32,000 nt of DNA from Rhodobacter capsulatus SB 1003 (GTDB lineage Bacteria; Pseudomonadota; Alphaproteobacteria; Rhodobacterales; Rhodobacteraceae): contig NC_014034.1 in the NCBI RefSeq assembly GCF_000021865.1, positions 180,001 through 212,000 on the forward strand, given 5' to 3'. A model generated the notes under the pieces. The model searched no databases and had not been told where the DNA came from. It saw nothing but the letters and a program-made list of their open reading frames with translations. Shown one piece after another: positions 12,601 to 29,220 of the stretch. A program made the position numbers and the translations under genes. Position 1 is the first letter of the stretch, and each line of letters opens with the position of its first letter.

Positions 12601-12685
12601 GCCCAGATGGCGGAATTGGTAGACGCGCTGGTTTCAGGTACCAGTGCCGCAAGGCGTGGAGGTTCGAGTCCTCTTCTGGGCACCA
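12601..12685 (+). tRNA. tRNA-Leu (anticodon CAG), class II with a long variable arm, CCA encoded
   Basis: Acceptor GCCCAGA/TCTGGGC. Anticodon arm CTGGT-TTCAGGT-ACCAG. Long variable arm TGCCGCAAGGCGT. T-arm GGAGG-TTCGAGT-CCTCT. Discriminator A plus CCA. Confidence 0.95.
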
Positions 12686-12948: not shown

Positions 12949-13719
12949 TTACTTGCCAAGCTCCGGCCAGACGCAATCGATGCCGAAGGCGGTGCAGAAG
13001 CGTTCGTAATCCGGCTGCATGATCTGAAACAGCCGGTCATAGGTCGCCTGAGAGATGTCCTTCAGGGTCGACTTGTTGCTGTGCTTGATTTCGACGAAGC
13101 TGTCGTCCCAGATCGGATCGACGCCGACATGTTCGAACATCCGCCGCACCGTGGCTTTCGGATCGTTGCGCAGCTGCGTGTTGTCGATCACCAGCAGCCG
13201 TTCGCCGAAAATGCCCGCGAATCTTTGCGCCTTCGCCATGTAGAGGCTGAAGCCGATGATATGCATGTAGTTGCTCTGGATCACGCCGATGCCCGGCAGC
13301 ATCCTGGCCAGGTCGCGGTTGAAGAACATGTCCGGTGACATGTCCATCAGCGCGGGGATCTTGTTGACCACCTGCAGATGCCGGAAATGCGAGATCGCCC
13401 GCTCGATCGGGTTGCGGGTGATCAGGATCAGCTTGCCCTGCGGGTTGTAGCGGTCGATCAGCCGCGGCATCAGCGGCGTGTTGCAGGCGTCGAAATAGGT
13501 CGGGCTGGCGTCGACATAATGCTGCCCGGCGGGCAGGCCCGCGAAATGGCGGTGATACCAGTCGTCGCCTTCCGCATAGTTCAGCGAGAAATAGTGGATT
13601 TCCTTTTGCGTGCCCGAATGGATCTGCGGATGTTCGGTCAGGATGCGATGCAACGCGGTGGTCCCGCCCTTCATCGTGCCGATGATGAAGATGTCGGGCC
13701 GGTTGATGGTCTGGGTCAT
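12949..13719 (-). CDS. PAPS-dependent sulfotransferase (Sulfotransfer_1-like, NodH/heparan-type fold)
   Basis: 5'-PSB loop IFIIGTMKGGTTAL and 3'-PB motif LILITRNPIERAISHF. 256 aa, ATG at 13719. Confidence 0.88.
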   Translation of the reverse strand: MTQTINRPDIFIIGTMKGGTTALHRILTEHPQIHSGTQKEIHYFSLNYAEGDDWYHRHFAGLPAGQHYVDASPTYFDACNTPLMPRLIDRYNPQGKLILITRNPIERAISHFRHLQVVNKIPALMDMSPDMFFNRDLARMLPGIGVIQSNYMHIIGFSLYMAKAQRFAGIFGERLLVIDNTQLRNDPKATVRRMFEHVGVDPIWDDSFVEIKHSNKSTLKDISQATYDRLFQIMQPDYERFCTAFGIDCVWPELGK

Positions 13720-13857
13720 TCTTGTCTGCCTTGAACTGTCACAGCGATTTTGACGGACAGGGGGAGATTGCGCCCCCCGCGGCCGGAAGGCTGTGTTCCG
13801 GGAGAGGGGACGCAGGGGAAGATGCGCCGGGCGATGGCGGGAAAGCCGCGCAGGAGG

Positions 13858-16800
13858 TCATGCTTTCCCGGTTCCTGTCAGGCCGAACTGCACCGCAAGC
13901 TCGGCAATGTAGTCGGCGGCCTTTTGCTGTTGCACGGCGCCCAGCCCGTGCCGGGTCAGGATGTCGCGCTGCACCGCTTCGATCTCGGCCAGTTGCTTGG
14001 CGTCGAAATTCGAGATCGTGACGCTGTTCTGATGCCGCCGGTGAATGTTCTTCGAGGCGGTGTTGAAAGCGATCCCGCCGCGTTCCAGCAGCCACAGATA
14101 GACCAGCCAGTCGCCGACGAAGCGCACCGATTCCAACTCGGTGCGGTGCTCGGCCAGAACCGCGCGCAGCGCCCCGGCCGCCATCACCACCCCCGAGGCA
14201 TTCGGGATCGTGTTCTTCAGATAAAGCACCTCGGAGATTTCCTCGGCGCCGTCGCGGCAGTAGTTCTGCGCCCAATGCGTCGGGCTGATCTTGTCGGTGT
14301 AATAGCGGTAGTTCGCCGCCAGCGGCGTGCCGTTCTCGTCGATCTGCGCCGAGTCGGTATAGGACAGCACCGTCCCCGGTTTCTCGAAGCCGCGCATCGC
14401 GGTCGACAGGAAATCGGGCTCGGCCAGATCGTCGGCCTCGGCGATCCAGACGTAATCGCCATGCGCCAGATCCAGCCCCTTGATCCATTGCCGGAACACA
14501 TTGCCCGAGTTCACCTCGTTCGGGACGATGCGGATCGGCCGTTCGCAGCGCGCGGCAAAGGCGCGGATGCGCTCCAGGCTGTCGTCGGTCGAGCGGTCGT
14601 CAAGCACGATGATTTCGTAGATCGGGAAATCCTGCGCCAGAACCGAATTCAGCCGGTCCTCGATGTAGCGGCCATAGTTGTAGTTCGGCACGACCACCGA
14701 CACCCGCGGCACATGCCGCCCCGACAGCCGCAGCAGATCCAGCGTGTATTTGGTGAAATCGGCCTCGGCCTCGATGTAGTCGCGCGCGGCGGCCACCATC
14801 TGCCCGCGCCGCTCGGGGTGGTCGATCAGGCTTTCCACCGCCTGCGCCATCCCGGCCGGGTCCTGACCGCCGACGGCCAGCGCCAGACCGCGTTCGGCCA
14901 GCACTTCGCAGCCGGTGGTGCCCGCGAACATCACGCAGGGCAGCCGGGCCGCCATCGCCTCCAGCACGACCGAGGGGAACGGATCCTCGCGCGAGGACAG
15001 CAGGAACACGTCCGAGGCGGCATAGAAGGGGACCGGATCCTGTTGCCGGCCGAGGAAGCGCATGTGCCCGGCCACGCCCAGATCGCGGGCCAGGGCCTCG
15101 ATCTGCGGCAGGAAATGGATGTCGGCATGACCGATCCAGATCGCCTCGACCTTGCGGCCGAGCTCGCGCAGACGGGCCAGCGTGCGCACGAACAGATCGC
15201 CGCCCTTGCGGTGATCGACATAGCCCACGCCCAGAAGCAGCGTCGTGTCGGCATCCAGGCCCAGCTCGGCGCGCAGACGGGCGCGATGCTGCGCCAGCGC
15301 GTCCGAAGAGGCCAGCTCGTGCAGGTAAAGCCCCTGCGGCCGGATCTGCGCCCGCGGCAGCGACCGGCCCAGATAGGTCTCGAACTGCGCCTGCACCAGC
15401 GGCGCCGGGAAGACGACCTGATCGGCGTGATCGGCGACCAGCGTCATCTGCGGCCGCAGGTTCATCTGATCATAGACCGAGGCCATCTCGTGGATCAGCG
15501 ACACGGTGCGATAGCCCGCCTCGCGCAGCATCGGCAGGATCTCGGCGCTGACGGTGGTGTTGACGATCGCCACCTGCGCATCTTCGGTGCGCAGCCGCCG
15601 CAGCAGGCGGGTGCAGTTCTCGCCCGCCAGCGCCGGATCGTCGAGCACGACCACCTGCGCATATTGCGCATATTGCGTCACCATCTGACCGCCCTGCAGC
15701 AGGATGATCGTCACCTTGAACCCGTTTTGCACATAGTTCCGCGCCAGGTTCAAAAGCAGGATCTGCGCCCCGTGCGGATGCGCGTCATGGCCGACCAGCG
15801 TCACCATCCGCGGCACTTCGACCGGGTTCAGCGCCGCCCGCGAGGCTTCCAGATAGGCGTAACCGTATTTCGTGTCGGGCTCGAGATGCGCGCCCTCGGC
15901 CCATTCGTTCCAGGCATTGACGAAGATCACCCGCTCGTCGGGGGTGCGGGCATCGGCCAGCGTCCGGGTGACGGCGTTTTCCAGCCAGACGCGGTATTCG
16001 GCCGGGTTCGAATTGGCAAAGATCGCGCCCTTGTTCTTGCGCCGCGCGGTGTTGTCCCAGGACGGGCAGACCGAACGGTAAAGCTTGTAGTCGGGCATCG
16101 GATAATTGCGCGAGCGTTCGACATAGGACCGCCAGTCATAGATGATGCCGTCAAACTCGGGCGAGAGCCCCGGCACGCGGTCGGTCAGATTGTCGGGCGA
16201 ATAGTTGTTGGGCGGGAATTCCACCGCCGCATCAAAGCCGTATTCCGCCGGATCGACGGTTTCGAAGCTTTGCGGATAGGCCAGATAGATCTCGCCGACG
16301 CCGTTCTTGCGGCACCAGTCGCGCCAGCGCGCCGAGGTTTCGGCCACGTTCGGCATCAGGCTCGGGCGATAAAGCAGGATCAGCGGCTTGCCGTCGATGC
16401 GGATGTAACGCGGATCGCGCAGATAGGGCGCCAGTTCGGTGATGAAGTCGAGATCGTCTTCGGGGCTGTGGTTTTGCGAGATCAGCAGTTCCTGATCCAG
16501 CCCGTCCCAGCGCCGCGACCAGTTCTCGTTCGCCCAGCAGATGCAGAAGGGGAAATCGAGATCGGGCGTGTCCAGCCAGTTCCGCACCGGCTTTTCCAGA
16601 AGACGCTTGCCGCCGAACCAGTACCAGTAGAAGCAGAAGCCGCCGATGCCGTAAAGCTGCGCCAGCTCGATCTGCTTGCGCTGCACATTGGTATCCAGAA
16701 GGTTGTACTGGCCCAGTTCCGGAACCGGCTCGTGCGGCTGGTGATGGCCGGGGAACTGCGGTTGCGCCGGGCCGACATTCGTCCATTCGGTGAAACCCTT

Positions 16801-19800
16801 GCCCCACCAGGCGTCGTTTTCCGGGATGGCGTGGAACTGCGGCAGGTAAAAGGCGATCAGCCGCGCCTTCGGATTGCTCAGATCGGTGGTCTGGCGACGC
16901 GGCACGAAGGTGTTCGTCTCGGAGATCAGCACCGGCGGCATCGGTTCGGGCGCGGGCGCGACGGGGGCGGGTGCGACGGGCGCCGCCGGTTCCGGGGCAG
17001 GCGCGGCGACAGGCTGCGGTTGTTCGGCGACGGGGGCGGGTTCCGGGGCGGCGACGGGCATCGCAACGGGCGCCGCGACCGGGGCGGGGGCGGCGGCAAC
17101 CGGCTGAAACTGCGCCTGTTGCCGCTGGATCGCCTGCAGCTGCGCCGCGACAGCCTCGCGTTCGCGTTTTGCTTCCTGCCAGGCCTGATAGAACTGCGTG
17201 CTGCCCAGAAGGAAGCCGGTCTTGCTCAGCACCTTGTCCTTGAAGCGCAGCTTGCGCGTCATCGGCACCGGCAGGTAATGCCAGATGAACCGCGCCGTCG
17301 CCGAGGCCGACCGTCGGCCGTTCCGCGTGATCCAGCGCGTGCCGGTCACCACCACCCGCATCGGCGCGGTGATCCGCCACGAGGTGCTGGACCGCAGCAT
17401 CGCGATCGTTGTCTCGTGCTGGGCGATCACCCGGTCCAGATGCGCGATGTGGTGATAAAGCGCCTGCATCTGCACATGGTTCTGATCGCGTTCGCCGATC
17501 AGCTGCGTGTCGCGTTCATGCAACAGCGCCTGCACATGCGCCAGCTCTCCGGCACGGGCCTGCAGCTGCTGCAGGATGTCGGTGCGATCGGCCAGGGTCT
17601 GCTCCAGCCGCAGGCTGCGATCGGTCAGCTGGCCGCGGGTCTCGGTCAGCTGTCCCCGCGCCTCGGCCAGATGCTGACGGGTCTGCGACAGCTCGGTCAG
17701 CTGGCTGTTGGCCTCCGTCAGCTGGACCCGGGTCTGCGTCAGCTCTCCGCGGGTCTCGGTCAGCTGGTCGTGGGTTTCGGCCAGCTGGTCGAAGGCCTCG
17801 GACAGCTTCGCGCGGGTGCCGGTCAGCTCCTCGCGGGTGCCGGTCAGCTGCGCGACGGTCTCGCCAAGTTTCGCCCGGGTGCCGGTCAGCTCCTCGCGGG
17901 TTTCGGTCAGCAGGCCGCGGGTCTCGGTCAGCAGGCCGCGGGTGTCCAGCAGCTGCTCGCGGGTGTCGGTCAGCTGGTCGAAGGTCTCGGTGAACTTCCC
18001 GCGGGTTTCGATCAGCTCCTCGCGGGTGCCGGTCAGCGCGGCCCGGGTCTCGGTCAGCAGCTCATGCGCCCCGGCCAGCTGCTCGCGGGTTTCCGCCAGC
18101 TGCGCCGAGGTGTCGGACAGCTTGACCCGGGTTTCGGCCAGCCCGTCACGGGCTTCGATCAGCCGGTTCTGGGTCTCGGTCAGCTGTTCGCGGGTTTCGG
18201 TCAGCCGCCCGCGGGTTTCGGTCAGCTCCTCGCGGGTGCCGGTCAGCTGCTGATGCAGCTCGCCAAGGCGGGTTTCGACGGCGCGACGTTCGCCCCGTTC
18301 GGCTTCCAGCCCCTCGGACACCGCCGCCAGCTGCGCGGTCGTCTCGGCCTTTTCGATGCGTTCCTGCTCCAGCTCGGCGGCGGCGTCGGTCAGCGCCCGT
18401 TCGGCCGTGGCCAGCCGGGCGACCAGCTCGTCGCGCTCGGCCTGCAGATGCTCGATCTGGGTCTGGCTGGCCGTCAGCTTCGCCTCGAGATCGGCCAGAC
18501 GCAGCATCAGATCCTGTTCCAGCTGCCACCGTTCGGTCTCGATCCGGCTGCGTTCCGCCAGACCGGCCTCCAGCTTCGCCCGGGCCTCCGAGAGCTGCTC
18601 TTCCATCTGGGCGATGCGGGCCTGTGTCGCCTCGTCGCGCTGGCCCTGTTCGGCCGCGCTGTCCTCAAGCCGCTTCGCGGCATCGTCAAGGCGCTGCTGC
18701 AGCATCTGGCCGGTGCTGCCAACTTCCGCCAGCCGCGCATTCAGCGCGTTGATCTCCTTGACCTTTTCGCTCAGCAGGCTTTGCGCCTGCATCAGCTCGT
18801 CGGTGCGCATCCGCACCGCATTCTCGCGTTCCGCCAGCCGCGCGCTCAGATCCGAGATGAAGGATTCGTTCTTGCGGTTCAGCTCGGCAACCGTGCTGTG
18901 AAGCTCCCAGATGCCGCCGACATTGCGGGTCATGTCCTCGTAGCGGGCCTGCAGGTCGAGATGCTCGTTTTCAAGCGTGCGCAGCGTCGTCTGCACCTGC
19001 GCCAGCATCCGGTCGGCGTCGCGCTGGGTCGGCAGCGTCAGCCGTTCCATCTCGTCAAGCTGCGCGCGCAGCCCGTCAAAGGCGGCCATCACCTCGGCCT
19101 TGTTCGGATCGGCGCACAGATCGGCCAGCGCGCGATAGATCTTCAGCGCCATCCCGGCGGTGTAATCGATCGCTTCCAGCGTGCCGGTATCGCCCGCGTG
19201 GTGGCGGTACTCCTCCGAGATGAAGGAATCCGCCTCTTCGGCGATCTCGTCGATCCGGCCCAGACGATCCAGCCCGAGATCGCGGCTGAGCCGTTCCGTC
19301 TCGGTCGCCCAATCCGCCATCAGGCCCGCGTAATCGACGAAGCTGCGCCGCAGGCCGCGGCTGAACATCTCGGCATCCAGCACATGGCGCATCCAGAGCA
19401 GCACGCCGCGCCGCAGCGGGATCCGGTCGCGGCTTTCCAGCGACCGGGCCACGTCCAGCGGGTTGCGATAGGGCAGGATCACCCGGGTCTCGAAGCCTTC
19501 CTCGGCCAGCGCCTCGATGACCGGCGGCGCCAGTCGGCAGACCCGCGGTTCCTTGAGCACCAGGCTGTAGCGGTTGCCCTTTTCCGTCCGCAGCCAGCTG
19601 CGCAGATTGCTGCGATAGGCGGCCGAGACCTCTTCGGGCAGGGCGTCGAAATCGATGTGCGACCAGTCGGACCAGGCGCTGCCGATCGTCTTCAGGAACT
19701 CCTCGTTGAGGGTGTTCAGGACGAGGGGCTCCCAATGGCCGGTCGGGTTGCTCTCGTTGGCGCCGATCAGCTCGGTCGGCAGGGCATAGCCCGCGATGTT

Positions 19801-20094
19801 CAGCAGGCGGCTGAGCATGCTGGTGCCGGAGCGGTGCATGCCCAGAACAAGAAGGCAGATCGGGGTCGTGTTCTGGGGCTTGCGGCGGCGCCCGGCGGGG
19901 GCGGGGGCGGCCTGCGCGGGCCGCCGCGACGACGTGGATTTGAGCGGAATTGCAGCGTTTCCGACGTTCTTTGGCCCAAGGTTTTTCATGCTTTGCCTTT
20001 GCTGTAATTCCGATTTTCGGGCGTGCGGCCACTGTGTCCGGCTGGAAATCGGGTGTAACGGGACCGGGCACGCCGTCAAGTCTGTTTGCGTCAT
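13858..20094 (-). CDS. Giant multidomain polysaccharide biosynthesis protein: sulfotransferase / long coiled coil / Pro-Ala linker / WbsX (GH99-like) / GT4 / GT2
   Basis: Approximate nt map: sulfotransferase 19860-19200 ([36 protein letters not shown]). Coiled coil 19110-17400. Linker 17103-16933. WbsX-like 16868-15835 ([36 protein letters not shown]). GT4 15810-14725 ([22 protein letters not shown]). GT2 14715-13861 ([34 protein letters not shown], EADD). An alternative ATG at 19989 would remove 35 aa. Confidence 0.9.
   Translation of the reverse strand: [2078 protein letters not shown]
16933..17103 (-). repeat. Low-complexity Pro/Ala/Val linker (57 aa) inside the giant CDS
   Basis: [57 protein letters not shown], with degenerate PAPVAA-type reiteration. 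Confidence 0.85.
17608..18246 (-). repeat. In-frame tandem array of 30 heptad units (21-bp period), consensus L-T-E-T-R-x-x
   Basis: [35 protein letters not shown] ... [14 protein letters not shown]: 29 units of 7 aa plus one of 10 aa (LTE+LSQTRQH), 213 aa in total. An exact 26-nt copy CGGGTGCCGGTCAGCTCCTCGCGGGT occurs at 17813-17838 and 17876-17901 (63-bp higher-order period). Confidence 0.95.
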
Positions 20095-20127: not shown

Positions 20128-20931
20128 TCAGCGTTCCGAGAGGATTTTGCGGTGGTGGCGATGCAGCAGCAGCATTCCCAGCGCGCCGATCAGCAGCGAC
20201 ACCCCGTAAACATAGGCTTCGGACACGTAAACCGCGTCATAGGTGTCATAAATGCCCTTGCGCATCATCATCACGACATGGGTCGGCGGCACCAGCAGGC
20301 TGATGATCCGCACCGGCTCGGGCATCTGGTCGATCAGGAACAGCACCCCCGCCACAAGGAACATCGGCCGGTTCAGCACCGCCCAGACCATCTGCCAGGC
20401 CGGAAAGGTGCTCATCAGATAGCAGTTCAGCAGCCCGACCGCGGTGCCCAGTGCGATCAGCATCCCCCAGGCGCGGCCAAGCGCCGGGAAATTCAGGTTG
20501 ATCTGGCTGTGCTGCGTCGCGATGGCGACGGCGATGACGATGGCGAAGACCTGCAGCTGCGTCAGCGTCGTCAGGATCAGCCGCGCCGCGATCGCGTCGA
20601 TGTAGGTCACGCTCGGATAGGCCAGCAGCGCCTTGGAAAAGCGGATCGACATCGCGACGTTGATCGAAATCGCGTTATAGGCGGTCAGGGTCAGATATCC
20701 GCTGGCGTAGAACAGGATGAAGCTTTGCCCCAGCGGCGGCTTGTGCACGATCATCGAGAACACCACCGAAAGCAGCGCGATCGCCGCCACAGGTTCCGCG
20801 ACGGTCCAGAAATAGCCGCCGATGGACTTGCCGTAGGTCGTCGTCATCTCGCGCAGGATCAGCGCGAAGACGGCGCGGGCGCCGATCAGCCTGCTCCGGT
20901 TGGTCCGGACGGAAACGGCGGCTTTTGCCAT
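20128..20931 (-). CDS. kpsM: Capsular polysaccharide ABC-2 transporter permease
   Basis: 267 aa, six hydrophobic segments, N-terminus ...LILREMTTTYGKSIGGYFWTVAEP typical of the ABC-2/KpsM family. ATG at 20931 with GGAGG 9 nt upstream. Paired with kpsT and kpsE. Confidence 0.88.
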   Translation of the reverse strand: MAKAAVSVRTNRSRLIGARAVFALILREMTTTYGKSIGGYFWTVAEPVAAIALLSVVFSMIVHKPPLGQSFILFYASGYLTLTAYNAISINVAMSIRFSKALLAYPSVTYIDAIAARLILTTLTQLQVFAIVIAVAIATQHSQINLNFPALGRAWGMLIALGTAVGLLNCYLMSTFPAWQMVWAVLNRPMFLVAGVLFLIDQMPEPVRIISLLVPPTHVVMMMRKGIYDTYDAVYVSEAYVYGVSLLIGALGMLLLHRHHRKILSER

Positions 20932-20989
20932 GGAAACGGGCCTCCGAGAGGGGGTTCAGCACGTGTTCCCTAGTGCTTTTTCGCTTGCA
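20932..20989. promoter_or_regulatory. Divergent kpsM / kpsE intergenic control region
   Basis: Only 58 bp separate the two divergent start codons. It contains the CACGTG palindrome (in AGCACGTGTT) and the locally AT-richest stretch, TAGTGCTTTTTCGCTTGCA. No promoter hexamers could be assigned confidently. Confidence 0.35.
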
Positions 20990-22243
20990 ATGCGAGGGAC
21001 AAATAACCATGAGTTGCCTCACCTCGATGGCGCGACGGGAGTAAGGGCGATTAACAAGCAGCTGTCGGAAGCGGCCGATGCCGCGGTCAAACGGGCACCG
21101 AAGCCGATCCCCAATCCTGCCGCGGCCCGGCCGCGGTTCCGGCACAAGGTGCTTTTTTCCAGCTTCGTGCTCGGGGTTGTCGCCCCGACCGTTCTGGCCG
21201 TCGTCTATCTGTATCTGATCGCCGCCGACCAATATGCCTCGAAGGTGGGCTTCACCGTCCATTCCGAAGACATGAGTTCCGCCGGCGCGCTGCTGGGCGG
21301 GCTGTCGATGCTGACGCAAAGCAGCTCCTCGGATGCCGAGGTGATCTACGAATTCATCCAGAGCCGCACCCTGGTCGAGCGGATCAACCGCAAGATCGAT
21401 CTGGCGCAGGTGTTTTCGCGTCCCGCCTTCGATCCGGTCTTCACCTATGACACCGACGGCACGATCGAGGATCTGGTCGATTACTGGCAGCGGATGGTGC
21501 GGATTTCCTATGCCTCGAACAGCGGCCTGATCGAGGTCGAGACCCGCGCCTTCAGCCGCGAGGATGCGCTGGCGATCGCCCGCGAGATCGTCGCGGAATC
21601 GACCGCGGTGATCAACGAGATGTCGGCGATCGCCCGCGAGGATGCCACCCGCTACGCGCGCGAGGAACTGGCCGTGGCGATCGAGCGGCTGAAACAGGCC
21701 CGCGAGGAACGCACCCGGTTCCGCTCCAAGACCCGGCTGATCGATCCGGCGGCGGATGTGCAGGGGCAGATGGGGCTGATGACCTCGCTCGAGCAGCAGC
21801 TGGCACAGGCCTATATCGACCTGAACCTGACGCTGGAAACCTCGTCGGGCGACGATCCGCGGGTGTCGCAGTCGCGCCGCCGCATCGATGTGATCCAGAC
21901 CCTGATCGAACAGGAAAAAAGCAAGTTCGGCATGGGGGATACGGAAAACCCCGATGTGGAATCGAGCGAGGATTACCCGACGCTGATGGCCGAATACGAA
22001 CGGCTGAGCGTCGATGTCGAATATGCCAATTCGGCCTATCTGGCGGCGATGGCCTCGCTTGATTCGGCCAAGGCCGAGGCGCAGCGGCAAAGCCGCTATC
22101 TGGCCAGCTACACCACGCCCTCGATGGCCGAGGCCTCGACCTATCCGCAACGCGGTCTGATTGCCGGGCTGACGGCGGTGTTCCTGACGCTGGCCTGGTC
22201 GATCTGCGTGCTGATCTTCTACAGTCTGCGCGACAGGCGCTGA
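20990..22243 (+). CDS. kpsE: Capsule polysaccharide export inner-membrane protein (PCP-3, KpsE/CtrB family)
   Basis: N-terminal TM VLGVVAPTVLAVVYLYLIAADQYASKVGFTVHSE, a long periplasmic coiled region and a C-terminal TM GLIAGLTAVFLTLAWSICVLIFY. First ATG after kpsM is at 20990. The track start (TTG at 20900) would overlap kpsM. No SD is visible, so the start is uncertain. Confidence 0.82.
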   Translation: MRGTNNHELPHLDGATGVRAINKQLSEAADAAVKRAPKPIPNPAAARPRFRHKVLFSSFVLGVVAPTVLAVVYLYLIAADQYASKVGFTVHSEDMSSAGALLGGLSMLTQSSSSDAEVIYEFIQSRTLVERINRKIDLAQVFSRPAFDPVFTYDTDGTIEDLVDYWQRMVRISYASNSGLIEVETRAFSREDALAIAREIVAESTAVINEMSAIAREDATRYAREELAVAIERLKQAREERTRFRSKTRLIDPAADVQGQMGLMTSLEQQLAQAYIDLNLTLETSSGDDPRVSQSRRRIDVIQTLIEQEKSKFGMGDTENPDVESSEDYPTLMAEYERLSVDVEYANSAYLAAMASLDSAKAEAQRQSRYLASYTTPSMAEASTYPQRGLIAGLTAVFLTLAWSICVLIFYSLRDRR

Positions 22244-22247
22244 GCCG

Positions 22248-22931
22248 ATGATCGAGCTGCGGAACCTGAACAAGACCTTCCGGCTGAACGGGGTGTCGAA
22301 GACAGTGGCGCGCGACATCAACTTCGTCTTTCCGACGGGCGAGGCGGTGGCGCTTTTGGGCGGCAACGGCGCGGGCAAATCCACCATGCTCAGCATGATC
22401 GCGGGCACGGTCGAGCCGGACAGCGGCGAAGTGCTTTCGGACGGGTCGGTGTCCTGGCCGATCGGCTTTGCGGGCAGCTTTCACGGCGATCTGACCGGGG
22501 CGCAGAACGTGCGCTTCATCGCCCGCGTCTATGGCATCGACACCGACGAGGCGATCCGGTTCTGCCGCGACTTCGCCGATCTGGGGCAGCATTTCCACCT
22601 GCCGACGCGGACCTATTCCTCGGGGATGCGGTCCCGGCTGGCCTTTGCCATGTCGATGGCCGTGCCCTTCGACACCTATCTGATCGACGAGGTGATGTCG
22701 GTCGGCGACAGCTCGTTCAAGGCGAAGTGCCAATCCTTCATGCAGGAACGGCTGAAGACCTCAAGCGCGATCATCGTCTCGCACCAGTTCGGGGAACTCA
22801 AGCGGCTTTGCGCCTCGGGGGTCTATCTGGAGGGCGGGCAGCTTTATTACTACCCCGAGGTCGGCCAGGCGATCGAGCATTACCAGAAGGCGATGCAGCG
22901 CAATGCCGCCCGCACGCCCGGCGGCGTCTGA
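22248..22931 (+). CDS. kpsT: Capsule polysaccharide ABC transporter ATP-binding protein
   Basis: Walker A GGNGAGKST, signature YSSGMRSRLAFA, Walker B YLIDEV. 227 aa, i.e. ABC core only. Starts 4 nt after the kpsE stop. Confidence 0.93.
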   Translation: MIELRNLNKTFRLNGVSKTVARDINFVFPTGEAVALLGGNGAGKSTMLSMIAGTVEPDSGEVLSDGSVSWPIGFAGSFHGDLTGAQNVRFIARVYGIDTDEAIRFCRDFADLGQHFHLPTRTYSSGMRSRLAFAMSMAVPFDTYLIDEVMSVGDSSFKAKCQSFMQERLKTSSAIIVSHQFGELKRLCASGVYLEGGQLYYYPEVGQAIEHYQKAMQRNAARTPGGV

Positions 22932-23032
22932 GGGCCGTTGCGGATCCGCCCCCCCGGGCGTGCGCCGGTCTGCGGGCATCTTAACCCTCTCGCGGGAAAT
23001 CTGGGGCGGTTCATCACCCGCGGAGATCACCC

Positions 23033-24148
23033 ATGGCCGACCAAACCCCGCTGCTGGGGCTGCCCCTCATCCTGCCGTCGCAGGCGCAAAAGCACGTCAC
23101 CCACAACGAGGCGCTGAGCCTGCTCGATGCGATCGTGCAGCTGGCCGTGCTGGACCGGGTGCGGACGGCGCCGCCCGCCTCGCCGCAGACCGGCGACCGC
23201 CACATCGTCGCCCCCGGCGGGGCGGCGGCCTGGACCGGGCAGGACGGGGCGGTGGCGCTTTGGACCGGCAGCGGCTGGCTGTTTGCGCAGCCGCAGCCGG
23301 GCTGGACGGCGCGGGATCTGTCGGACGGGGCGCTTTTGATTTTCGACGGCAGCCTCTGGGGGCCCGCTCCGGTCGCGACCGACAACCTGCCCGGGCTGGG
23401 CATCAACACCACGCATGACACCACGAACCGGCTTGCCGTCCAGGCCGCGGCGACGCTGCTCAGCCATGCGGGCGCGGGCCATCAGCTGAAGATCAACAAG
23501 GCCCTGCCCACCGATACCGCAAGCCTGCTGTTCCAGACCTCCTGGTCGGGCCGGGCCGAGATGGGCACGACGGGCAGCGACAGTTTCGCGATCAAGGTCA
23601 GCGCCGATGGCACGGCCTGGAAGACGGCGTTCAGCTTTGCCGGGGCGACGGGGCTTGCCTCGGGTCTCGCTGTGCAGCAATCGCGGACCGATGTCACGGC
23701 GGGGCGGTTGATGCGGGCGGATTGGGGCTACGGGCCGGGCAATCTGCTCGGCACGGTGGCACAAAGCGCGGGCGTGCCGACGGGGGCGGTGCTGGAACGC
23801 GGCACGACGGCGAACGGCGAATACATCCGCTTTGCCGACGGCACGCAGATCTGTTTCGCGCAGCGCCCGCTCGGGTCGATCATCGCGCAGGGCGCGGGGT
23901 CCTTTGCCGCGCCCTACCGGACCGCCGATGTCAGCTGGACCTATCCCAAGGTGTTTTCGGCCGCGCCGGTGGTGACCTGCCGCGGCGTGGCGCCGGTCGG
24001 GCTGACCCAGGACCGGCGTCTTTGCGCGGGCGGCGTCGGCGATCTGGACGCCACGGCGGCGACGGGCATTCATGTCGTGCGGCTGGGCGGCGCGGCCAAT
24101 GCCGATGTGTTCAAGGCCGATCTGATCGCCATCGGCCCCTGGGTCTAA
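23033..24148 (+). CDS. DUF2793-type phage/GTA tail-fibre-like protein with a C-terminal knob
   Basis: N-terminus MADQTPLLGLPLILPSQAQKHVTHNEALSLLDAIVQL...GDRHIV...AAWTGQDGAVALW..GWLF matches my memory of the DUF2793 signature. Middle part LGINTTHDTTNRLAV...HQLKINKA..DTASLLFQTSWSGRAEMG..GSDSFAIKVSADG..W. C-terminal GEYIRFADGTQICF... resembles tail-fibre tip domains. ATG at 23033 with GGAG 8 nt upstream. Confidence 0.7.
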   Translation: MADQTPLLGLPLILPSQAQKHVTHNEALSLLDAIVQLAVLDRVRTAPPASPQTGDRHIVAPGGAAAWTGQDGAVALWTGSGWLFAQPQPGWTARDLSDGALLIFDGSLWGPAPVATDNLPGLGINTTHDTTNRLAVQAAATLLSHAGAGHQLKINKALPTDTASLLFQTSWSGRAEMGTTGSDSFAIKVSADGTAWKTAFSFAGATGLASGLAVQQSRTDVTAGRLMRADWGYGPGNLLGTVAQSAGVPTGAVLERGTTANGEYIRFADGTQICFAQRPLGSIIAQGAGSFAAPYRTADVSWTYPKVFSAAPVVTCRGVAPVGLTQDRRLCAGGVGDLDATAATGIHVVRLGGAANADVFKADLIAIGPWV

Positions 24149-25065
24149 AGCCGCCGCAGCAGCGCCCCGGCATAAAGCGACAGCTGCCCGCGCAGGCCTT
24201 GCCGGTAAAATCCCGCGCGGCGGATCGCGGCCAGGCTTTGCAGCGGCGGCAGGCTGCGGGCGCGTTCAAAGGCCGCCAGAAGGGCGCGGTTTTCCGGCGT
24301 CAGCAGATCCTCGATCGCCCGCAGCGCGGCGATGTTGCGTTTGCACCAGTCGGAAAACCGCCCCGTCACCAGCATATGCGCCCGGACCAGCGTTGCCAGC
24401 GCGCCGCGGTTCGCGCCGATCACGTTGCTCTCGTGCTGACGATACAGCAGATGCGGCGTGTCGTCGAAGATCACCCGGCCGCCGATGCCGGTGATCACCT
24501 GATAGATCCACCAGTCATGGATCACCGTATCGGTGGTGCGCAGCGCGGCGGCGCGGATCGCCTCGGCCCCGGCGCGGTTGAGCACCATCGTATTGCCGCC
24601 CGCGATGTTCTGCACCAGCGCATGCGCAAAGGCGGCGGGTCGGGGCGCGCCGCGCGACAGCCGATGCCCGGTCAGATCCTCGTTCACCTCGAAGGACCGG
24701 CCGCAATACATCGCGGGCTGATCCGTCGGCCCCTGCGCCAGCGCCGCCGCCGCCACCTGCAGCTTTTCGGGCAGCCAGACATCGTCCTGATCGGAAATCG
24801 CCCGCAGATCGGTTTCGACCGGCAGCCGCAGCAGCGACAGGAAATTCTGCGCCGCCCCGGCCCGCGGCCCGGCCAGCAATGTCACGGCGATCCCGGGATG
24901 GGCGGCGGCCCAGCCCGACAGCACCTCCACCGTCGCATCGGTCGAGCCGTCGTCGCTGACGATCAGCCTTGCGGGCACAAGGCTTTGCGCGGCGAAACTG
25001 TCCAGCTGCGGCACCAGCCGCGCCGCGCCGTTCCAGGTCGCCATCAGGATCGTGACCGAGGCCAC
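24145..25065 (-). CDS. Family 2 glycosyltransferase, rhamnosyltransferase-like
   Basis: VTILMATWNGAARLVPQLDSFAAQS...LIVSDDGSTD and ISDQDDVWLPEKL motifs. Start set at the GTG at 25065 (8 nt after the rmlA stop). The ATG at 25044 is the alternative. The track ORF to 25413 overlaps rmlA. Confidence 0.85.
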   Translation of the reverse strand: MASVTILMATWNGAARLVPQLDSFAAQSLVPARLIVSDDGSTDATVEVLSGWAAAHPGIAVTLLAGPRAGAAQNFLSLLRLPVETDLRAISDQDDVWLPEKLQVAAAALAQGPTDQPAMYCGRSFEVNEDLTGHRLSRGAPRPAAFAHALVQNIAGGNTMVLNRAGAEAIRAAALRTTDTVIHDWWIYQVITGIGGRVIFDDTPHLLYRQHESNVIGANRGALATLVRAHMLVTGRFSDWCKRNIAALRAIEDLLTPENRALLAAFERARSLPPLQSLAAIRRAGFYRQGLRGQLSLYAGALLRRL

Positions 25066-25072
25066 CGCCGCC

Positions 25073-25948
25073 TTACCCTTCCAGCAGCTTGCGCAGGTAA
25101 TCGCCGTAATCGTTCTTGCCAAAGAGCTTCGCCCGGGCGCGCAGGCCCTCGGCATCGATCCAGCCACGTTCAAAGGCGATCTCGTCCGGGCTGCCGGTCT
25201 GCAGGCCCTGCCGTTTTTCCAGCGTGCGGACGAAATTGCCCGCATCCAGCAGGCTGCCATGCGTGCCGGTGTCCAGCCAGGCATAGCCGCGGCCCATCGG
25301 ACAGACGCGCAGGCTGCCCTCGGCCAGATACATTTCCAGCAGCGTGACGATTTCCAGCTCGCCCCGTGCCGAGGGGGTGACCTTGCGGGCGCGTTCGGGG
25401 GCGCTGCCATCAAGGAAATAAAGCCCTGTCACCGCGAAATTCGACGGCGGCACCGGCGGTTTCTCGATGATCGCGCGGACCTTGCCCTCGGTGTCGAAAT
25501 CCACCACGCCATAGCGCTCCGGATCGGCGACGCGATAGCCGAAGACGGTTCCGCCGGTCGCATGGGCATCGGCCTCGGCCAGCAGCGCCGAAAGCCCGTG
25601 GCCGAAAAAGATGTTGTCGCCCAGCACCATCGCCGAGGGGGCGCCGTCCAGAAACTCCTCGGCCAGAAGATAGGCCTGCGCCAGCCCGTCGGGCGAGGGC
25701 TGCGCGATATAGGTCAGGCTGAGACCCCATTGCGAGCCGTCGCCCAAGGTGCGCTTGAACTGCTCCTGATCGATCGGCGTGGTGATGATCGCGATCTCGC
25801 GGATGCCCGCGAGCATCAGCACCGAGAGCGGATAATAGACCATCGGCTTGTCATAGATCGGCAGAAGCTGCTTCGAGACGCCGATGGTGATCGGGTAAAG
25901 CCGCGTGCCCGAGCCCCCGGCCAGAATGATGCCCTTGCGTGTCGTCAT
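25073..25948 (-). CDS. rmlA: Glucose-1-phosphate thymidylyltransferase
   Basis: KGIILAGGSGTRLYPIT, SKQLLPIYDKPMVYYPLS, and YGVVDFD...EKP over 291 aa. Confidence 0.96.
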   Translation of the reverse strand: MTTRKGIILAGGSGTRLYPITIGVSKQLLPIYDKPMVYYPLSVLMLAGIREIAIITTPIDQEQFKRTLGDGSQWGLSLTYIAQPSPDGLAQAYLLAEEFLDGAPSAMVLGDNIFFGHGLSALLAEADAHATGGTVFGYRVADPERYGVVDFDTEGKVRAIIEKPPVPPSNFAVTGLYFLDGSAPERARKVTPSARGELEIVTLLEMYLAEGSLRVCPMGRGYAWLDTGTHGSLLDAGNFVRTLEKRQGLQTGSPDEIAFERGWIDAEGLRARAKLFGKNDYGDYLRKLLEG

Positions 25949-25949
25949 G

Positions 25950-26798
25950 TCAAATCTCCAGTTCTTTCAAAACCTTGGAAAGACCCGCCTGCCAGTCGGG
26001 CGCGGCGATGCCGAAATCGCGGGCCAGCGCCGCGCAGTCCATCCGGCTGTTGAGCGGGCGCAGCGCGGGGGTCGGATAGGCCGCGGTCGGAATGCCCGTC
26101 ACCGCCACCTTGCGCCCCGCAAGCGCAAAGATCTCGCGGGCGAAATCGGCCCAGCTGACCCAGGGGCTTGCCGCCGAAATGATAGGTGCCGCCGGGCTTG
26201 TCCGGCGGCCATCTTCCGCGCCATCAACGATCAGCGCCGCCGCGATATCGGCCGCGGGCGTCGGACCGCCGATCTGGTCCTCGACCACGTTCAGCGCGTC
26301 GCGGCTCTCGCTCAGCCGCAGCATGGTTTTCACGAAATTCGCCCCATGCGCGGAAAACACCCAGGAGGTGCGCAGGATCGCCGCAGCGCCCCCCGCCGCC
26401 CGGACGCCCTGTTCCCCGGCCAGCTTGCTGCGGCCATAGGCATTTTGCGGCGCCACCGGATCGGTCTCGACCCAGGGCGCGCTGCCCGCGCCGGAAAAGA
26501 CGTAATCGGTCGAGACATGCAGGAAGGGGATGCCCCGGGCGGCACAGGCCCGCGCCATCGCCGCGGGGGCCGCGCCGTTCACCACCGTCGCCGCGGCTTC
26601 CTCGGTCTCGGCCTTGTCCACCGCGGTCCAGGCGGCGGCATTGATCACCGCCTCGGCGTCGCTGTCCCGGATCGCGGCCGCGCAGGCTTCGGGATCGGCA
26701 AGATCGGCCTGCTCGCGTCCCAGAAACCGGGCCTGTGGCAGCTGGCGTTGCAATTCTGTCGCGACCTGACCCGTCCGACCAAACACGAGAACCTTCAT
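25950..26798 (-). CDS. rmlD: dTDP-4-dehydrorhamnose reductase
   Basis: MKVLVFGRTGQVATEL at the ATG at 26798, catalytic YGRSKLAGE, 282 aa. Its stop is 1 nt from the rmlA start. The track extension to 27035 overlaps the upstream ORF. Confidence 0.93.
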   Translation of the reverse strand: MKVLVFGRTGQVATELQRQLPQARFLGREQADLADPEACAAAIRDSDAEAVINAAAWTAVDKAETEEAAATVVNGAAPAAMARACAARGIPFLHVSTDYVFSGAGSAPWVETDPVAPQNAYGRSKLAGEQGVRAAGGAAAILRTSWVFSAHGANFVKTMLRLSESRDALNVVEDQIGGPTPAADIAAALIVDGAEDGRRTSPAAPIISAASPWVSWADFAREIFALAGRKVAVTGIPTAAYPTPALRPLNSRMDCAALARDFGIAAPDWQAGLSKVLKELEI

Positions 26799-26800
26799 TT

Positions 26801-27478
26801 TCAGCCCCTGACCCGAGTGTTGATACGCAAGTCGAGCCCGTCGAACAGGCCCGGTTGACCGATCGCCCGCGCGAAGGCGGGCAGGATGTCGCCCTCTTCG
26901 GCGCAGATCCGGTCGTAATCCAGCACCACCGGCGTGCCGATCCCCTGCCAGAAGGCCAGGATCGCCGCGGAGTCGTAATACCAGGCACCATCGGTGCTTT
27001 GATCGTCGGGCAGCGCCTTCTGGGCTTCCCAGCACCCGGTCTTGCGCAGCTGATCGGCGCGCGCGGCCCGCCAGTCGTCCGGATTGCGCAGCGTGATCAG
27101 CGGCACGATCCGCGCGAAGGTCGGGGCCAGCGCGGATTTCAGCGCAAAGGCTTCAAGCGGCGTGCGCAGCAGGCAGAATTCCTCGCTGCTGATGACCATC
27201 TCCGGGGCGGTTCCGCGCGCGGCCGCGATCTTTGCGGGAACCGCGGCAAGCCGGGCCAGATCGGGCAGCGGATCGCCATAGGACATCCGCGGCGTCGAGC
27301 GGATCTCGGGGCGCAGGAAGGTGTTGGCCAGGGTCCAGGCATTCGCTTCGGGAAAAACCGCAACCCCCGCCGCCCGCAGACGGGCGGCCGAAAGTTTCAG
27401 CGCCCGCTGGATCGATGTCGTCCCGGTCTTGTGGGTGCCGACATGCAGCCAGAGCGTGCCCGTTCCCGCCTGGTTCAC
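26801..27478 (-). CDS. Sulfotransferase-fold hypothetical protein inserted in the rml operon
   Basis: [16 protein letters not shown] (P-loop-like 5'-PSB) and [17 protein letters not shown] (3'-PB-like). A GTG at 27478 overlaps the rmlB TGA (GTGA). The stop is 2 nt before the rmlD ATG. The alternative GTG at 27532 would overlap rmlB by 58 nt. Confidence 0.65.
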
Positions 27479-28536
27479 CCCTTGACCCCCAGTCGCTGGC
27501 CGACGCCCTCGCGGTTCTGCAGCGCCCGCCACCAGCTTTCGTTGGCCAGATACCAGTCGACGGTGCGTTCCAGCCCCTCTTCGACGGTGACCGAGGGCCG
27601 CCAGCCCAGTTCGGTGCGGATCCGCGTCGGATCGATCGCATAACGGGCGTCATGGCCGGGGCGGTCGGTGACGAAGGTGATCTGATCGGCATAGCTGCCC
27701 GAGGCCTTCGGCCGCTTGCGGTCGAGGATCTCGCAGAGCGTACGGACCAGCTCAAGGTTGGTGCGCTCGTTCTCGCCGCCGATGTTGTAGCTGCGCCCGA
27801 CCGCGCCCTTTTCGACCACGGTCAGAAGCGCATCGGCGTGATCCTCGACATAAAGCCAGTCGCGGATGTTCGAGCCGTCGCCATAGATCGGCAGCGCCTT
27901 GCCCGCCAGCGCGTTCAGGATGATCACCGGGATCAGCTTTTCCGGGAAATGGAACGGCCCGTAATTGTTCGAGCAATTGGTCAGCAGCACCGGCAGGCCA
28001 TAGGTCTCGTGCCAGGCGCGGACCAGATGATCCGAGCCCGCCTTCGAGGCCGAATAGGGGCTGCGCGGATCATAGGGCGTGTCCTCGGTGAACTTGACCT
28101 GCGGATCATGCGGCAGGGACCCGAAGACCTCGTCGGTGGAGATGTGATGGAAGCGGAAGGTCCCGGGACGGCCGCGGCCTTCCCAATGCTGCCGGGCGGC
28201 CTGCAGCATCTGATAGGTGCCCATCACATTCGTCTCGATGAAGACGCCCGGCCCGTCGATCGAGCGGTCGACATGGCTTTCGGCGGCCAGATGCATCACC
28301 GCATCGGGCTGATGGCGGTCCAGAATGGCCAGGATGGCGGCGCCGTCGCGGATGTCGGCCTGCTCGAAGGCATAAAGCGGCGAGCCGGCGACCGAGGCCA
28401 CGTTGTCCAGACAGGCGGCATAGGTCAGGGCATCGACATTGACCACCGCATGACCGCGCGCGATCGCCAGACGCACCACCGCGGAGCCGATGAACCCTGC
28501 CCCCCCGGTCACGAGAATCTTCATGGCAAATTCCAT
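27475..28536 (-). CDS. rmlB: dTDP-glucose 4,6-dehydratase
   Basis: [13 protein letters not shown] and [15 protein letters not shown] (YxxxK). About 350 aa. The start is ATG 28536 or, more typical for the family, ATG 28524 (MKILVTGG). Confidence 0.96.
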
Positions 28537-28568
28537 TTCTTCTGGTTTGAAACAGGCTTACTTGCGCA

Positions 28569-28598
28569 GATTGCAAAGGACAACCGGCCTTTGCAATC
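28569..28598. repeat. Perfect 11-bp inverted repeat in the rmlC-rmlB spacer
   Basis: GATTGCAAAGG-ACAACCGG-CCTTTGCAATC. Relatively AT-rich for this DNA. No T-tract follows on the transcribed (minus) strand. Confidence 0.8.
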
Positions 28599-28612
28599 CT
28601 GTCGGTCTCGGC

Positions 28613-29176
28613 TCAGCCCTGCCAGCTGAAAGCGCTGTCGAAATCGGCGATCCGGCCCGCGACCGCATCCTTGGCCGACAGAACCGGCTCCAGATCGCCC
28701 ATGCCCCAGTCGATGCCGATGTCGGGGTCGTTCCAGATCAGCGCGCCCTCGGTTTCCGGGTGATAATAGTCCGAGCATTTGTAGATGATCTCGGTTTCCG
28801 GCGCGCGGGTGACGAAGCCATGCGCGAAGCCCTTGGGCACCAGAAGCTGGCGGCCGTTTTCAAAGCTCAGCTCGGCGCCGAACCACTGCCCGTAGGTGGG
28901 CGAGCCCTTGCGGATGTCGACCGCGACATCAAAGAGGCAGCCCTTGCCGCAGCGCACCAGCTTGTCCTGGGCATGCGGCGGGTTCTGGAAATGCAGGCCG
29001 CGGATCGTGCCCACGGTCATCGACAGCGAATGGTTGTCCTGCACGAAAACGGTGTCGATCCCGTGCTCGGCCAAAGCCTTGGCCGAATAGCTTTCGGAAA
29101 AGAAGCCCCGGTGATCGCCGAAGCGGCGGGGGGTGATCAGCTTGACACCGGCAAGCGGCGTGTCTTCGACGAACAT
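28613..29176 (-). CDS. rmlC: dTDP-4-dehydrorhamnose 3,5-epimerase
   Basis: FGDHRGFFSESY, RGLHFQ, and KLVRCGKGCLFDVAVD. Start set at the ATG at 29176 (MFVEDTPLAGVKLITP) with GAGGA 7 nt upstream. Confidence 0.94.
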   Translation of the reverse strand: MFVEDTPLAGVKLITPRRFGDHRGFFSESYSAKALAEHGIDTVFVQDNHSLSMTVGTIRGLHFQNPPHAQDKLVRCGKGCLFDVAVDIRKGSPTYGQWFGAELSFENGRQLLVPKGFAHGFVTRAPETEIIYKCSDYYHPETEGALIWNDPDIGIDWGMGDLEPVLSAKDAVAGRIADFDSAFSWQG

Positions 29177-29220
29177 CGCGGTCCTCGTTGCAACAGGGGT
29201 TCCGCGTCTCCTTAACAATT

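What the first reader, a model, noticed from the sequence alone, without database searches (positions are those of the whole stretch)
23033..24148. Phage/GTA tail-fibre-like (DUF2793) gene embedded in the capsule locus, with no other phage genes nearby
Seen in sequence: a 371-aa ORF follows kpsT after a 101-bp gap on the same strand. Its N-terminus is LGLPLILPSQAQKHVTHNEAL...GDRHIV...WTGQDGAVALW. Its central segment is NRLAV...KINKA...SLLFQTSWSGRAEMG...IKVSADG. Its C-terminal roughly 110 aa (from GEYIRFADGTQICF, about 23816-24145) look like a tail-fibre tip or knob. There is no capsid, terminase, integrase or other tail gene in 32 kb.
Established knowledge, from memory and to be verified: the DUF2793 signature occurs in alphaproteobacterial prophage and gene-transfer-agent fibre proteins. 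In Rhodobacter capsulatus, RcGTA attachment proteins are encoded away from the main GTA cluster, and the capsule is the RcGTA receptor.
Inference: this may be an orphan receptor-binding protein co-localised, and perhaps co-regulated, with synthesis of its own polysaccharide receptor. Alternatively it is a domesticated fibre acting as a capsule-binding or depolymerising protein.
Basis: partly seen in the sequence, partly recalled or inferred. Interest (0 to 1): 0.65.

Follow-up and report, generated by a model that had tools for sequence, protein, structure and literature searches.

The report
Known RcGTA tail-fibre gene (rcc00171)

Summary
The 371-aa ORF at 23033-24148(+) is real. It has a strong DUF2793 match (107 bits; cut-off 27), and phage tail-fibre families cover its whole length. 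The exact protein occurs in Rhodobacter capsulatus genomes, about 203 kb into a chromosome. Species, length (371 aa), DUF2793 content and position directly downstream of three EPS-export genes (kpsM/E/T-like) all match the published description of rcc00171, the RcGTA tail fibre.

Published work already shows:
- knockout abolishes gene transfer;
- purified protein blocks transfer and binds capsule;
- no lyase activity was found;
- three trimeric fibres sit on the megatron baseplate protein;
- expression follows the CtrA/GafA late-gene programme.

The depolymerase alternative is refuted. That the neighbouring genes make its receptor remains untested.

I found one thing that I did not see in the searchable literature. 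In 57 of 80 species the closest homologues lie within 10 kb of NDP-sugar, kps or glycosyltransferase genes. These loci are often on roseobacter rhamnose 'biofilm' plasmids and never sit next to baseplate genes. A CtrA-type TTAAC half-site is enriched upstream of the fibre genes.

The parts
23033..24148 (+). rcc00171 orthologue: RcGTA tail-fibre protein, 371 aa
   Evidence: ORF. Exact protein found in R. capsulatus genomes. Bardy 2020 gives Rcc00171 as 371 residues. Hynes 2016 places it downstream of three EPS genes and notes its DUF2793 domain.
23033..23167 (+). [quoted passage not shown]
   Evidence: Domain limits come from Bardy 2020. The AF2 model has a helix at aa 15-35. aa 5-134 align to the phage R4C baseplate fibre 8gtc_S, E=6.5e-15.
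23102..23359 (+). DUF2793 (PF10983) match, aa 24-109
   Evidence: E=5.3e-31, 106.8 bits (cut-off 27).
23168..23809 (+). Knob region (aa 46-259); strongly conserved among Rhodobacterales homologues
   Evidence: Limits from Bardy 2020. Alignment A1 has many invariant columns up to about aa 274.
23810..24145 (+). C-terminal foot (aa 260-371): lectin-like receptor-binding domain, hypervariable between species
   Evidence: Sequence match to F2-pyocin side fibre 25ve, aa 225-322, E=2e-8. Foldseek matches R1-pyocin fibre 6cl5/6cxb and H-type lectins, TM about 0.6-0.67 on the target. AF2 pLDDT is above 90 here. The region is variable, with indels, in A1.
22932..23032 (+). Promoter/leader region of the fibre gene, with TTAAC (CtrA-type half-site) at 22981-22985 and RBS GGAGA at 23021-23025
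   Evidence: Sequence. Only 3 TTAAC sites occur in the whole 32 kb. Sherlock & Fogg 2022 report CtrA half-sites in the rcc00171 promoter. No terminator-like site and no unusually stable fold lie between kpsT and the fibre gene.
20128..22931 (.). Context: the 'three EPS genes' upstream. These are kpsM-like ABC-2 permease (20128-20931, -), kpsE-like (about 20990-22243, +) and kpsT-like ATPase (22248-22931, +).
   Evidence: Pfam ABC2_membrane and ABC_tran. Gene calls in identical R. capsulatus contigs. The kpsE label rests on position and on conserved kpsM-E-T triads in other loci; it has no Pfam hit.
12949..20094 (-). Context: sulfotransferase (12949-13719) and a 2078-aa multi-domain glycosyltransferase (13858-20094: sulfotransferase-like, coiled coil, WbsX, GT4, GT2)
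24145..29218 (-). Context: GT2 glycosyltransferase convergent with the fibre gene (24145-25065, overlapping it by 4 nt), then rmlA, rmlD, an unknown ORF, rmlB and rmlC

Best explanation
The ORF is the Rhodobacter capsulatus orthologue of rcc00171, the tail-fibre (receptor-binding) protein of the gene transfer agent RcGTA.

Shown in the literature:
- The protein is found in purified RcGTA particles.
- Nine copies form three trimeric fibres on the threefold baseplate.
- The C-terminal lectin-like foot binds a sugar on the recipient cell.
- Without the protein, particles are made, contain DNA and still adsorb through the head spikes, but transfer no genes.
- Free protein blocks transfer and binds cells better when the capsule is present.
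- Transcription follows the late RcGTA programme (quorum sensing, CtrA~P, GafA) rather than that of the neighbouring genes.

Inferred here:
- The gene has its own promoter in the 101-bp gap after kpsT, with a TTAAC half-site 52 bp before the ATG.
- Its residence inside a kps/rml polysaccharide locus is an old, conserved linkage in Rhodobacterales, not a recent accident.
For: Identity:
- The exact 371-aa protein occurs on 33 contigs, and its >=90%-identity cluster is named as Rhodobacter capsulatus DUF2793 protein. One copy lies at about 203 kb of a 3.85-Mb chromosome, consistent with locus tag ~171.
- Hynes 2016 states that rcc00171 is 'directly downstream of three predicted EPS synthesis genes' and contains DUF2793. 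This matches kpsM/E/T followed by the ORF.

Family and fold:
- DUF2793 at 107 bits and tail-fibre PHROGs.
- The N-terminus aligns to the phage R4C baseplate fibre 8gtc_S and the C-terminus to the F2-pyocin side fibre.
- Foldseek matches the R1-pyocin fibre, the R4C fibre and H-type lectins.

Function (published):
- Knockout abolishes transfer, purified protein inhibits transfer, and no lyase activity was found.
- The tagged fibre binds capsule.
- CtrA~P and GafA control expression, and the promoter has CtrA half-sites.
- The gene is co-regulated with RcGTA in four transcriptome contrasts, and the protein is present in particles.
- It co-evolves with GTA genes.

Promoter: TTAAC lies at 22981-22985.
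Against: - Identity therefore rests on species, length, domain content and gene context.
- SB1003 has one paralogue (rcc00919). It is reported to lie in a prophage region, which does not fit this window.
- The RcGTA fibre itself has no deposited PDB chain, so the structural comparison is with homologues only.
Confidence: 0.95

Rival explanations
1. It is a remnant tail-fibre gene of a decayed prophage (like the paralogue rcc00919), with no current function or a phage-only function.
For: The N-terminal ~220 aa resemble fibre genes of R. capsulatus phages, where the gene follows the g12-g15 baseplate genes. Hynes 2016 notes extra homologues in prophage regions.
Against: - No phage gene lies within 32 kb.
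- The reading frame is intact, its GC3 matches the host, and it is conserved at >=89% among full-length alleles across R. capsulatus strains.
- The context matches the published rcc00171 context.
- Knockout data show an essential GTA role.
Confidence: 0.02
2. It is a capsule or EPS depolymerase (tailspike-type enzyme) serving the adjacent polysaccharide locus or clearing a path for the GTA.
For: Hynes 2016 initially called it a probable tailspike. DUF2793 sometimes co-occurs with a peptidase G2 domain, and one plasmid homologue is annotated that way (H45).
Against: - No catalytic domain is found by Pfam or NCBIfam.
- The foot has a lectin fold, not a beta-helix hydrolase or lyase fold.
- Purified protein did not reduce cell-associated sugar, alter the capsule or cleave purified EPS.
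Confidence: 0.02
3. Besides, or instead of, its GTA role, the protein is a cellular surface lectin or adhesin belonging functionally to the conserved polysaccharide/RTX 'biofilm' module. For example, it might organise or anchor the polysaccharide.
For: - Homologues are embedded in polysaccharide/RTX/T1SS modules in many genera and on 166 plasmids. These include the Phaeobacter 65-70-kb plasmids that carry the rhamnose operon.
- None of the 80 loci has baseplate genes nearby.
Against: - The protein has no signal peptide-like N-terminus. Instead it has the conserved fibre N-terminus that docks on the megatron protein.
- It is found in RcGTA particles and is regulated with RcGTA.
- The family co-evolves with GTA structural genes.
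- CtrA-type half-sites are enriched upstream.
Confidence: 0.05

Closest known systems
Rcc00171 (ADE83936.1), RcGTA tail fibre of Rhodobacter capsulatus SB1003
   Same: Species, length (371 aa), DUF2793 content, rod/knob/foot layout, position after three EPS-export genes, and a CtrA half-site in the promoter.
   Different: No difference was detected. A residue-by-residue comparison with the SB1003 entry could not be run. R. capsulatus strains differ by up to about 11%.
Fibre protein of roseophage vB_DshS-R4C (PDB 8GTC chains S/T, deposited as 'Ribonuclease III')
   Same: The N-terminal ~130 aa are homologous (E=6.5e-15). In both, nine copies make three fibres on an RcGTA-like hub/megatron baseplate.
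   Different: The R4C protein is 230 aa and lacks the long knob and the pyocin-like foot. It is encoded directly after the megatron gene in a replicating phage.
R1/R2-type and F2-type pyocin fibres of Pseudomonas aeruginosa (PDB 6CL5, 6CXB, 25VE)
   Same: The C-terminal knob and foot are homologous, and the foot has a lectin-like fold that binds surface sugars.
   Different: The N-terminal attachment region is different (no DUF2793). Pyocins kill cells rather than deliver DNA. Pyocin fibres are encoded inside the pyocin cluster.
ghsA/ghsB (rcc01079/rcc01080), RcGTA head spikes
   Same: They are also RcGTA attachment proteins encoded outside the head-tail cluster and next to polysaccharide genes, in their case the proven capsule receptor genes rcc01081-1086.
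   Different: The sequences are unrelated. They sit on the head, not the tail. They are helpful but not essential for transfer. Hynes 2016 describes them as coregulated with the adjacent capsule genes.

Membership tests
Pfam PF10983 (DUF2793) | Score above the curated gathering threshold over the full model | tested here: met
   106.8 bits against 27; model positions 1-86 of 87
RcGTA tail fibre Rcc00171 (orthologue) | Encoded in Rhodobacter capsulatus, 371 residues | tested here: met
   The cluster of >=90% identical proteins is named R. capsulatus DUF2793 protein. The exact sequence is on 33 contigs. The 371-residue length is from Bardy 2020.
RcGTA tail fibre Rcc00171 (orthologue) | Lies directly downstream of three EPS-export genes, outside the head-tail cluster and outside any prophage | tested here: met
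   kpsM/kpsE/kpsT come immediately before the ORF. No phage genes in 32 kb.
RcGTA tail fibre Rcc00171 (orthologue) | Rod, knob and lectin-like foot architecture homologous to pyocin fibres | tested here: met
   The middle of the monomer model has low confidence; a trimer is needed.
RcGTA tail fibre Rcc00171 (orthologue) | Residue-level identity with ADE83936.1 | not testable with these tools
   The reference sequence is not retrievable here, and accessions of the window's own protein are masked.
RcGTA tail fibre Rcc00171 (orthologue) | Required for GTA gene transfer; present in particles; binds recipient surface sugar | not testable with these tools
   Published experiments only.
CtrA/GafA late RcGTA regulon | CtrA half-site (TTAAC) in the promoter | tested here: met
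   TTAAC at 22981-22985, 52 bp before the ATG, is one of only 3 in the window. The site is published for rcc00171. GafA site not tested, because I had no consensus for it.
Phage tailspike depolymerases | Recognisable catalytic domain (pectate-lyase-like beta-helix, peptidase G2, glycosidase) and polysaccharide cleavage | tested here: not met
   No such Pfam or NCBIfam domain. The best structural matches are fibres and lectins. Published lyase assays were negative.
Prophage or GTA head-tail cluster member | Adjacent to baseplate genes g12-g15 | tested here: not met
   tblastn with RcRudolph and R26L g12-g15 proteins gave no hit in the window or in any of the 85 loci. The positive control between the two phages worked.

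The most novel reading that the evidence does not exclude
The fibre gene and the surrounding polysaccharide locus may form a co-inherited receptor-binding-protein/receptor pair. The locus is ABC-transporter-dependent, rhamnose-containing and probably sulfated, and it is accompanied by RTX proteins. Under this reading, the locus makes the outer-surface sugar that the fibre's lectin foot recognises. The linkage is conserved from Rhodobacter and Cereibacter to Phaeobacter, Ruegeria, Sulfitobacter and others, and often lies on non-mobilisable 'biofilm' plasmids. Such linkage would keep the fibre's specificity and the cell's surface type together, so that GTA particles deliver DNA preferentially to kin. 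A single locus or plasmid would then set GTA host range.
Probability: 0.3. Interest if true: 0.65.

Novelty: already known. Interest (0 to 1): 0.2.

Why it matters
For the finding itself, little is new. The gene, its structure, its phenotype and its regulation are published, and its odd location was already remarked on.

What could matter is the breadth of the linkage. If the GTA tail-fibre gene sits in surface-polysaccharide loci in most Rhodobacterales, that location is probably selected. It would then point to the still unidentified second receptor of RcGTA. Residual fibre binding in capsule-less strains shows that such a receptor exists.

The linkage would also give a concrete genetic basis for the kin-restriction of GTA exchange. 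Theory requires this restriction, but it has not been mapped.

Tried and rejected
- NCBIfam gave no family for the ORF.
- The sigma-70 consensus scan found no promoter, and no terminator-like site lies between kpsT and the fibre gene. The intergenic RNA fold is no more stable than shuffled sequence, z=0.57. These tools therefore neither support nor exclude read-through from kpsT.
- I hoped to locate the published rcc00171 primers in the window, but the supplements of Hynes 2016 are not held.
- Searching for papers on rcc00167-rcc00172 returned only word-start artefacts (rcc001682 and similar). I found no published test of the neighbours.
- I tried clustering foot domains to look for co-variation with neighbouring sugar genes. 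Single-linkage clustering lumped 39 of 41 feet together and was uninformative. The maps also show Ruegeria loci with different feet but the same immediate NDP-sugar neighbours. I therefore make no co-variation claim.
- The AF2 monomer model is only partly confident (pLDDT 70; aa 114-157 and 231-251 are poor). Only the DUF2793 and foot parts were used.

Full report
**1. Observation.** The ORF at 23033-24148(+) exists exactly as described. It has an ATG start, encodes 371 aa and contains all the quoted peptide strings. Its third-position GC is 0.88, like the other real genes of this 65.5% GC window. It follows a kpsT-like ABC ATPase (22248-22931) after a 101-bp gap on the same strand. DUF2793 is matched at 106.8 bits against a cut-off of 27, over aa 24-109. 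Eleven PHROG families match. Those matching the N-terminal part are of unknown function or annotated tail fibre, and those matching the C-terminal part are annotated tail fibre.

The rest of the window holds these genes:
- a serralysin-like RTX protease, a transglycosylase, gltB and gltD;
- uppP, an epimerase, tRNA-Leu and a sulfotransferase;
- a 2078-aa multi-domain glycosyltransferase;
- kpsM, kpsE and kpsT, then the fibre gene;
- a convergent GT2 gene, rmlA, rmlD, an unknown ORF, rmlB and rmlC;
- an 879-aa RTX protein.

No phage family matched seven further ORFs: five without any Pfam match, plus the serralysin-like and 879-aa RTX proteins. Phage baseplate proteins g12-g15 find nothing in the window.

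**2. What it is.** A search of the large protein collection returned the identical 371-aa protein on 33 contigs. Its cluster of >=90% identical sequences is named 'DUF2793 domain-containing protein [Rhodobacter capsulatus]', and the next relative is Rhodobacter viridis at 84%. The gene lies about 203 kb into a 3.85-Mb R. capsulatus chromosome, with the same neighbours as in the window.

The literature then settles the identity:
- Hynes et al. [quoted passage not shown]
- Bardy et al. [quoted passage not shown]
- Kogay et al. 2024 list DUF2793/ADE83936.1 as the tail-fibre family (PMC10883770).

Species, length, domain content and context all agree. The only paralogue (rcc00919) is reported in a prophage region, which this window is not. 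I could not align the ORF to ADE83936.1 directly. That is the one untested link.

**3. How it works.** The following is published, not shown here.
- The protein is found in purified particles, and its transcript follows RcGTA production in four transcriptome contrasts: gtaI, ctrA, growth phase and an overproducer strain.
- Disruption abolishes gene transfer, although particles are made, contain DNA and still adsorb.
- Purified protein inhibits transfer in a dose-dependent way and shows no lyase activity on cells or purified EPS.
- A fluorescent fusion binds wild-type cells fully. It binds capsule-less strains less, though not at zero. The capsule is therefore one ligand, and another receptor remains.
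- CtrA~P together with GafA triggers the gene, and CtrA half-sites are reported in its promoter.

My own checks agree with this picture.
- aa 5-134 align to the baseplate fibre of roseophage R4C (8gtc_S, E=6.5e-15), and aa 225-322 align to the F2-pyocin side fibre.
- The AF2 model is confident for aa 40-110 and 250-370.
- Foldseek returns the R1-pyocin fibre, the R4C fibre and H-type lectins for the foot.
- A TTAAC half-site lies 52 bp before the ATG, and it is one of only three in the 32 kb.
- An RBS (GGAGA) precedes the start codon.

The core idea is correct and already established: an orphan GTA receptor-binding protein encoded away from the GTA cluster. The depolymerase alternative is contradicted by the negative lyase assays and by the lack of any catalytic domain. 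'Co-regulated with the neighbours' is not supported, because rcc00168-170 are absent from the RcGTA co-regulated set. Calling this 'the capsule locus' goes beyond the evidence. The proven capsule receptor genes are rcc01081-1086, next to the head-spike genes. The product of this kps/rml locus is unknown. Hynes et al. explicitly left open whether it takes part in attachment, and I found no later test.

**5. Beyond the finding: the linkage is broad.** A scan of one genome per species returned 80 loci encoding the closest homologues.

*Polysaccharide neighbours.* Comparison with the window's proteins, clustering of the neighbours and Pfam annotation gave these results.
- Genes for NDP-sugar synthesis, kps export or glycosyltransfer lie within the fetched +-10 kb in 57 of 80 loci. 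They lie within 5 kb in 49 loci and are the next called gene in 28.
- RmlC orthologues (>=58% identity) are present in 18 loci. A single rml operon in a roughly 4-Mb genome would be expected in well under 1% of random 20-kb windows; this baseline is my estimate, not a measurement.
- The commonest neighbour families are RmlB-like dehydratases/epimerases (31 loci), ManC (17), Ugd (17), KpsT (12), RmlA (12), RmlC (11), RmlD (10), KpsM and KpsE (9 each) and RTX proteins (9).
- RepA/ParA plasmid genes also recur.

*No baseplate neighbours.* No locus contains g12-g15-type baseplate genes, and the positive control between two phages worked.

*Plasmids.* In the plasmid collection the fibre matches 166 records: Phaeobacter 58, Sulfitobacter 16, Leisingera 13 and Cereibacter 13. 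Of these, 157 are non-mobilisable. Annotated examples show the gene between glycosyltransferases, Wza/YjbH/YjbF, kpsM/E/T-like genes, sulfotransferases and calcium-binding proteins. On the 65-kb Phaeobacter inhibens plasmid it lies between rfbACBD plus an M10-type protein plus an RTX protein on one side, and ManC, GDP-fucose genes, a type I secretion system and a sulfotransferase on the other. That is largely the same set of gene families as in the R. capsulatus window. This plasmid type is the 'biofilm plasmid with a rhamnose operon' of Michael et al. 2016. A term search of the main text of that paper (tail, phage, ribonuclease, gene transfer agent, hypothetical) found nothing.

*Phages.* In phages, by contrast, only the N-terminal ~220 aa are shared, and the gene follows the megatron gene.

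*CtrA-type sites.* TTAAC/GTTAA occurs within 200 bp upstream of 33 of 73 fibre genes. It occurs upstream of 55 of 404 other genes that have an upstream gap in the same loci (Fisher odds ratio 5.2, p=5e-9). The sites cluster mostly between -50 and -95.

*Caveats.*
- My gene calls are crude.
- The species are phylogenetically related, so these counts are not independent events.
- The 80 loci are those most similar to the R. capsulatus protein.
- More distant homologues are reported to sit at the 3' end of GTA clusters (Shakya 2017; D. shibae Dshi_2162).

*Foot variability.* Alignment A1 shows a strongly conserved N-terminal ~270 aa and a hypervariable foot with indels. This is the pattern expected of a specificity domain.

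**6. Novelty and scores.** The finding is already known, so its interest is low (0.2). I did not find the cross-genus linkage of the GTA fibre gene to polysaccharide, rhamnose and RTX modules in the searchable literature. The library is incomplete, so this is not proof of novelty. The linkage supports a testable hypothesis, though it does not prove it: the linked locus makes the fibre's receptor, and the pair is co-inherited, which would restrict GTA delivery to kin. I give this a probability of about 0.3 and an interest of 0.65 if true.

Noticed in passing
L006-L085 (80 species loci); plasmid loci L086, L087, L088, L091, L092: The closest homologues of the fibre gene sit in polysaccharide loci across many Rhodobacterales genera, often on non-mobilisable RepA-type plasmids. 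Nearby genes include rmlABCD, ManC/Ugd/Gmd, kpsM/E/T, Wza, glycosyltransferases and sulfotransferases, together with RTX proteins. The plasmids include the Phaeobacter 65-70-kb rhamnose 'biofilm' plasmids. None of the loci sits next to baseplate genes.
   Followed up: partly
200 bp upstream of the fibre genes in L006-L085; window 22981-22985: The CtrA-type half-site TTAAC/GTTAA is enriched upstream of fibre genes (33/73 against 55/404 control genes) and lies mostly between -50 and -95. R. capsulatus strain SP108 (L006) has TTTAC at the position where the window has TTAAC.
   Followed up: partly
R. capsulatus proteins P0130 (128 aa) + P0126 (267 aa); also P0131 (99 aa) + P0128 (267 aa): In at least one complete R. 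capsulatus genome (XZQ29570/XZQ29571) the fibre gene is split by a frameshift near residue 110. This is either a natural pseudogene, which would predict a strain unable to make transfer-competent GTA, or an assembly error. A second pair is cut by a contig end.
   Followed up: no
window 12601-12685 (+): A tRNA-Leu(CAG) gene lies exactly between the housekeeping block (gltBD, uppP, epimerase) and the start of the polysaccharide/fibre/RTX block. This may be the boundary of a genomic island. No integrase is present in the window.
   Followed up: no
window 13858-20094 (-): This 2078-aa single polypeptide combines a sulfotransferase-like region, a coiled coil, WbsX (GH99-like), GT4 and GT2 domains. 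It resembles the polymerase/chain-length 'ruler' enzymes of ABC-transporter-dependent glycans. Public annotations of identical DNA split it inconsistently (1203 to 2043 aa).
   Followed up: no
window 598-2358 (-) and 29261-31900 (-): A serralysin-like RTX protease with a PPC domain and an 879-aa RTX-repeat protein flank the locus. The same pairing (an M10 C-terminal protein plus calcium-binding proteins, with a type I secretion system) accompanies the fibre gene on the Phaeobacter inhibens 65-kb plasmid and in Tateyamaria (L068).
   Followed up: no
L037 (Thioclava litoralis), L078 (Shimia sp.): In these genomes gltB and the transglycosylase gene lie within 10 kb of the fibre gene, as they do at a 15-20 kb distance in R. 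capsulatus. This suggests an old chromosomal site into which the polysaccharide genes expanded.
   Followed up: no
plasmid hit H73, NZ_CP061939.1: A 16-kb 'Bacillus velezensis' plasmid record from sea water carries a 52%-identical DUF2793 fibre N-terminus. It is most likely a mislabelled or contaminating roseobacter replicon.
   Followed up: no
PDB 8GTC chains S/T; many phage and genome records: The fibre family is still widely annotated as 'ribonuclease III', including in the PDB entry. Hynes 2016 found no basis for this name.
   Followed up: no
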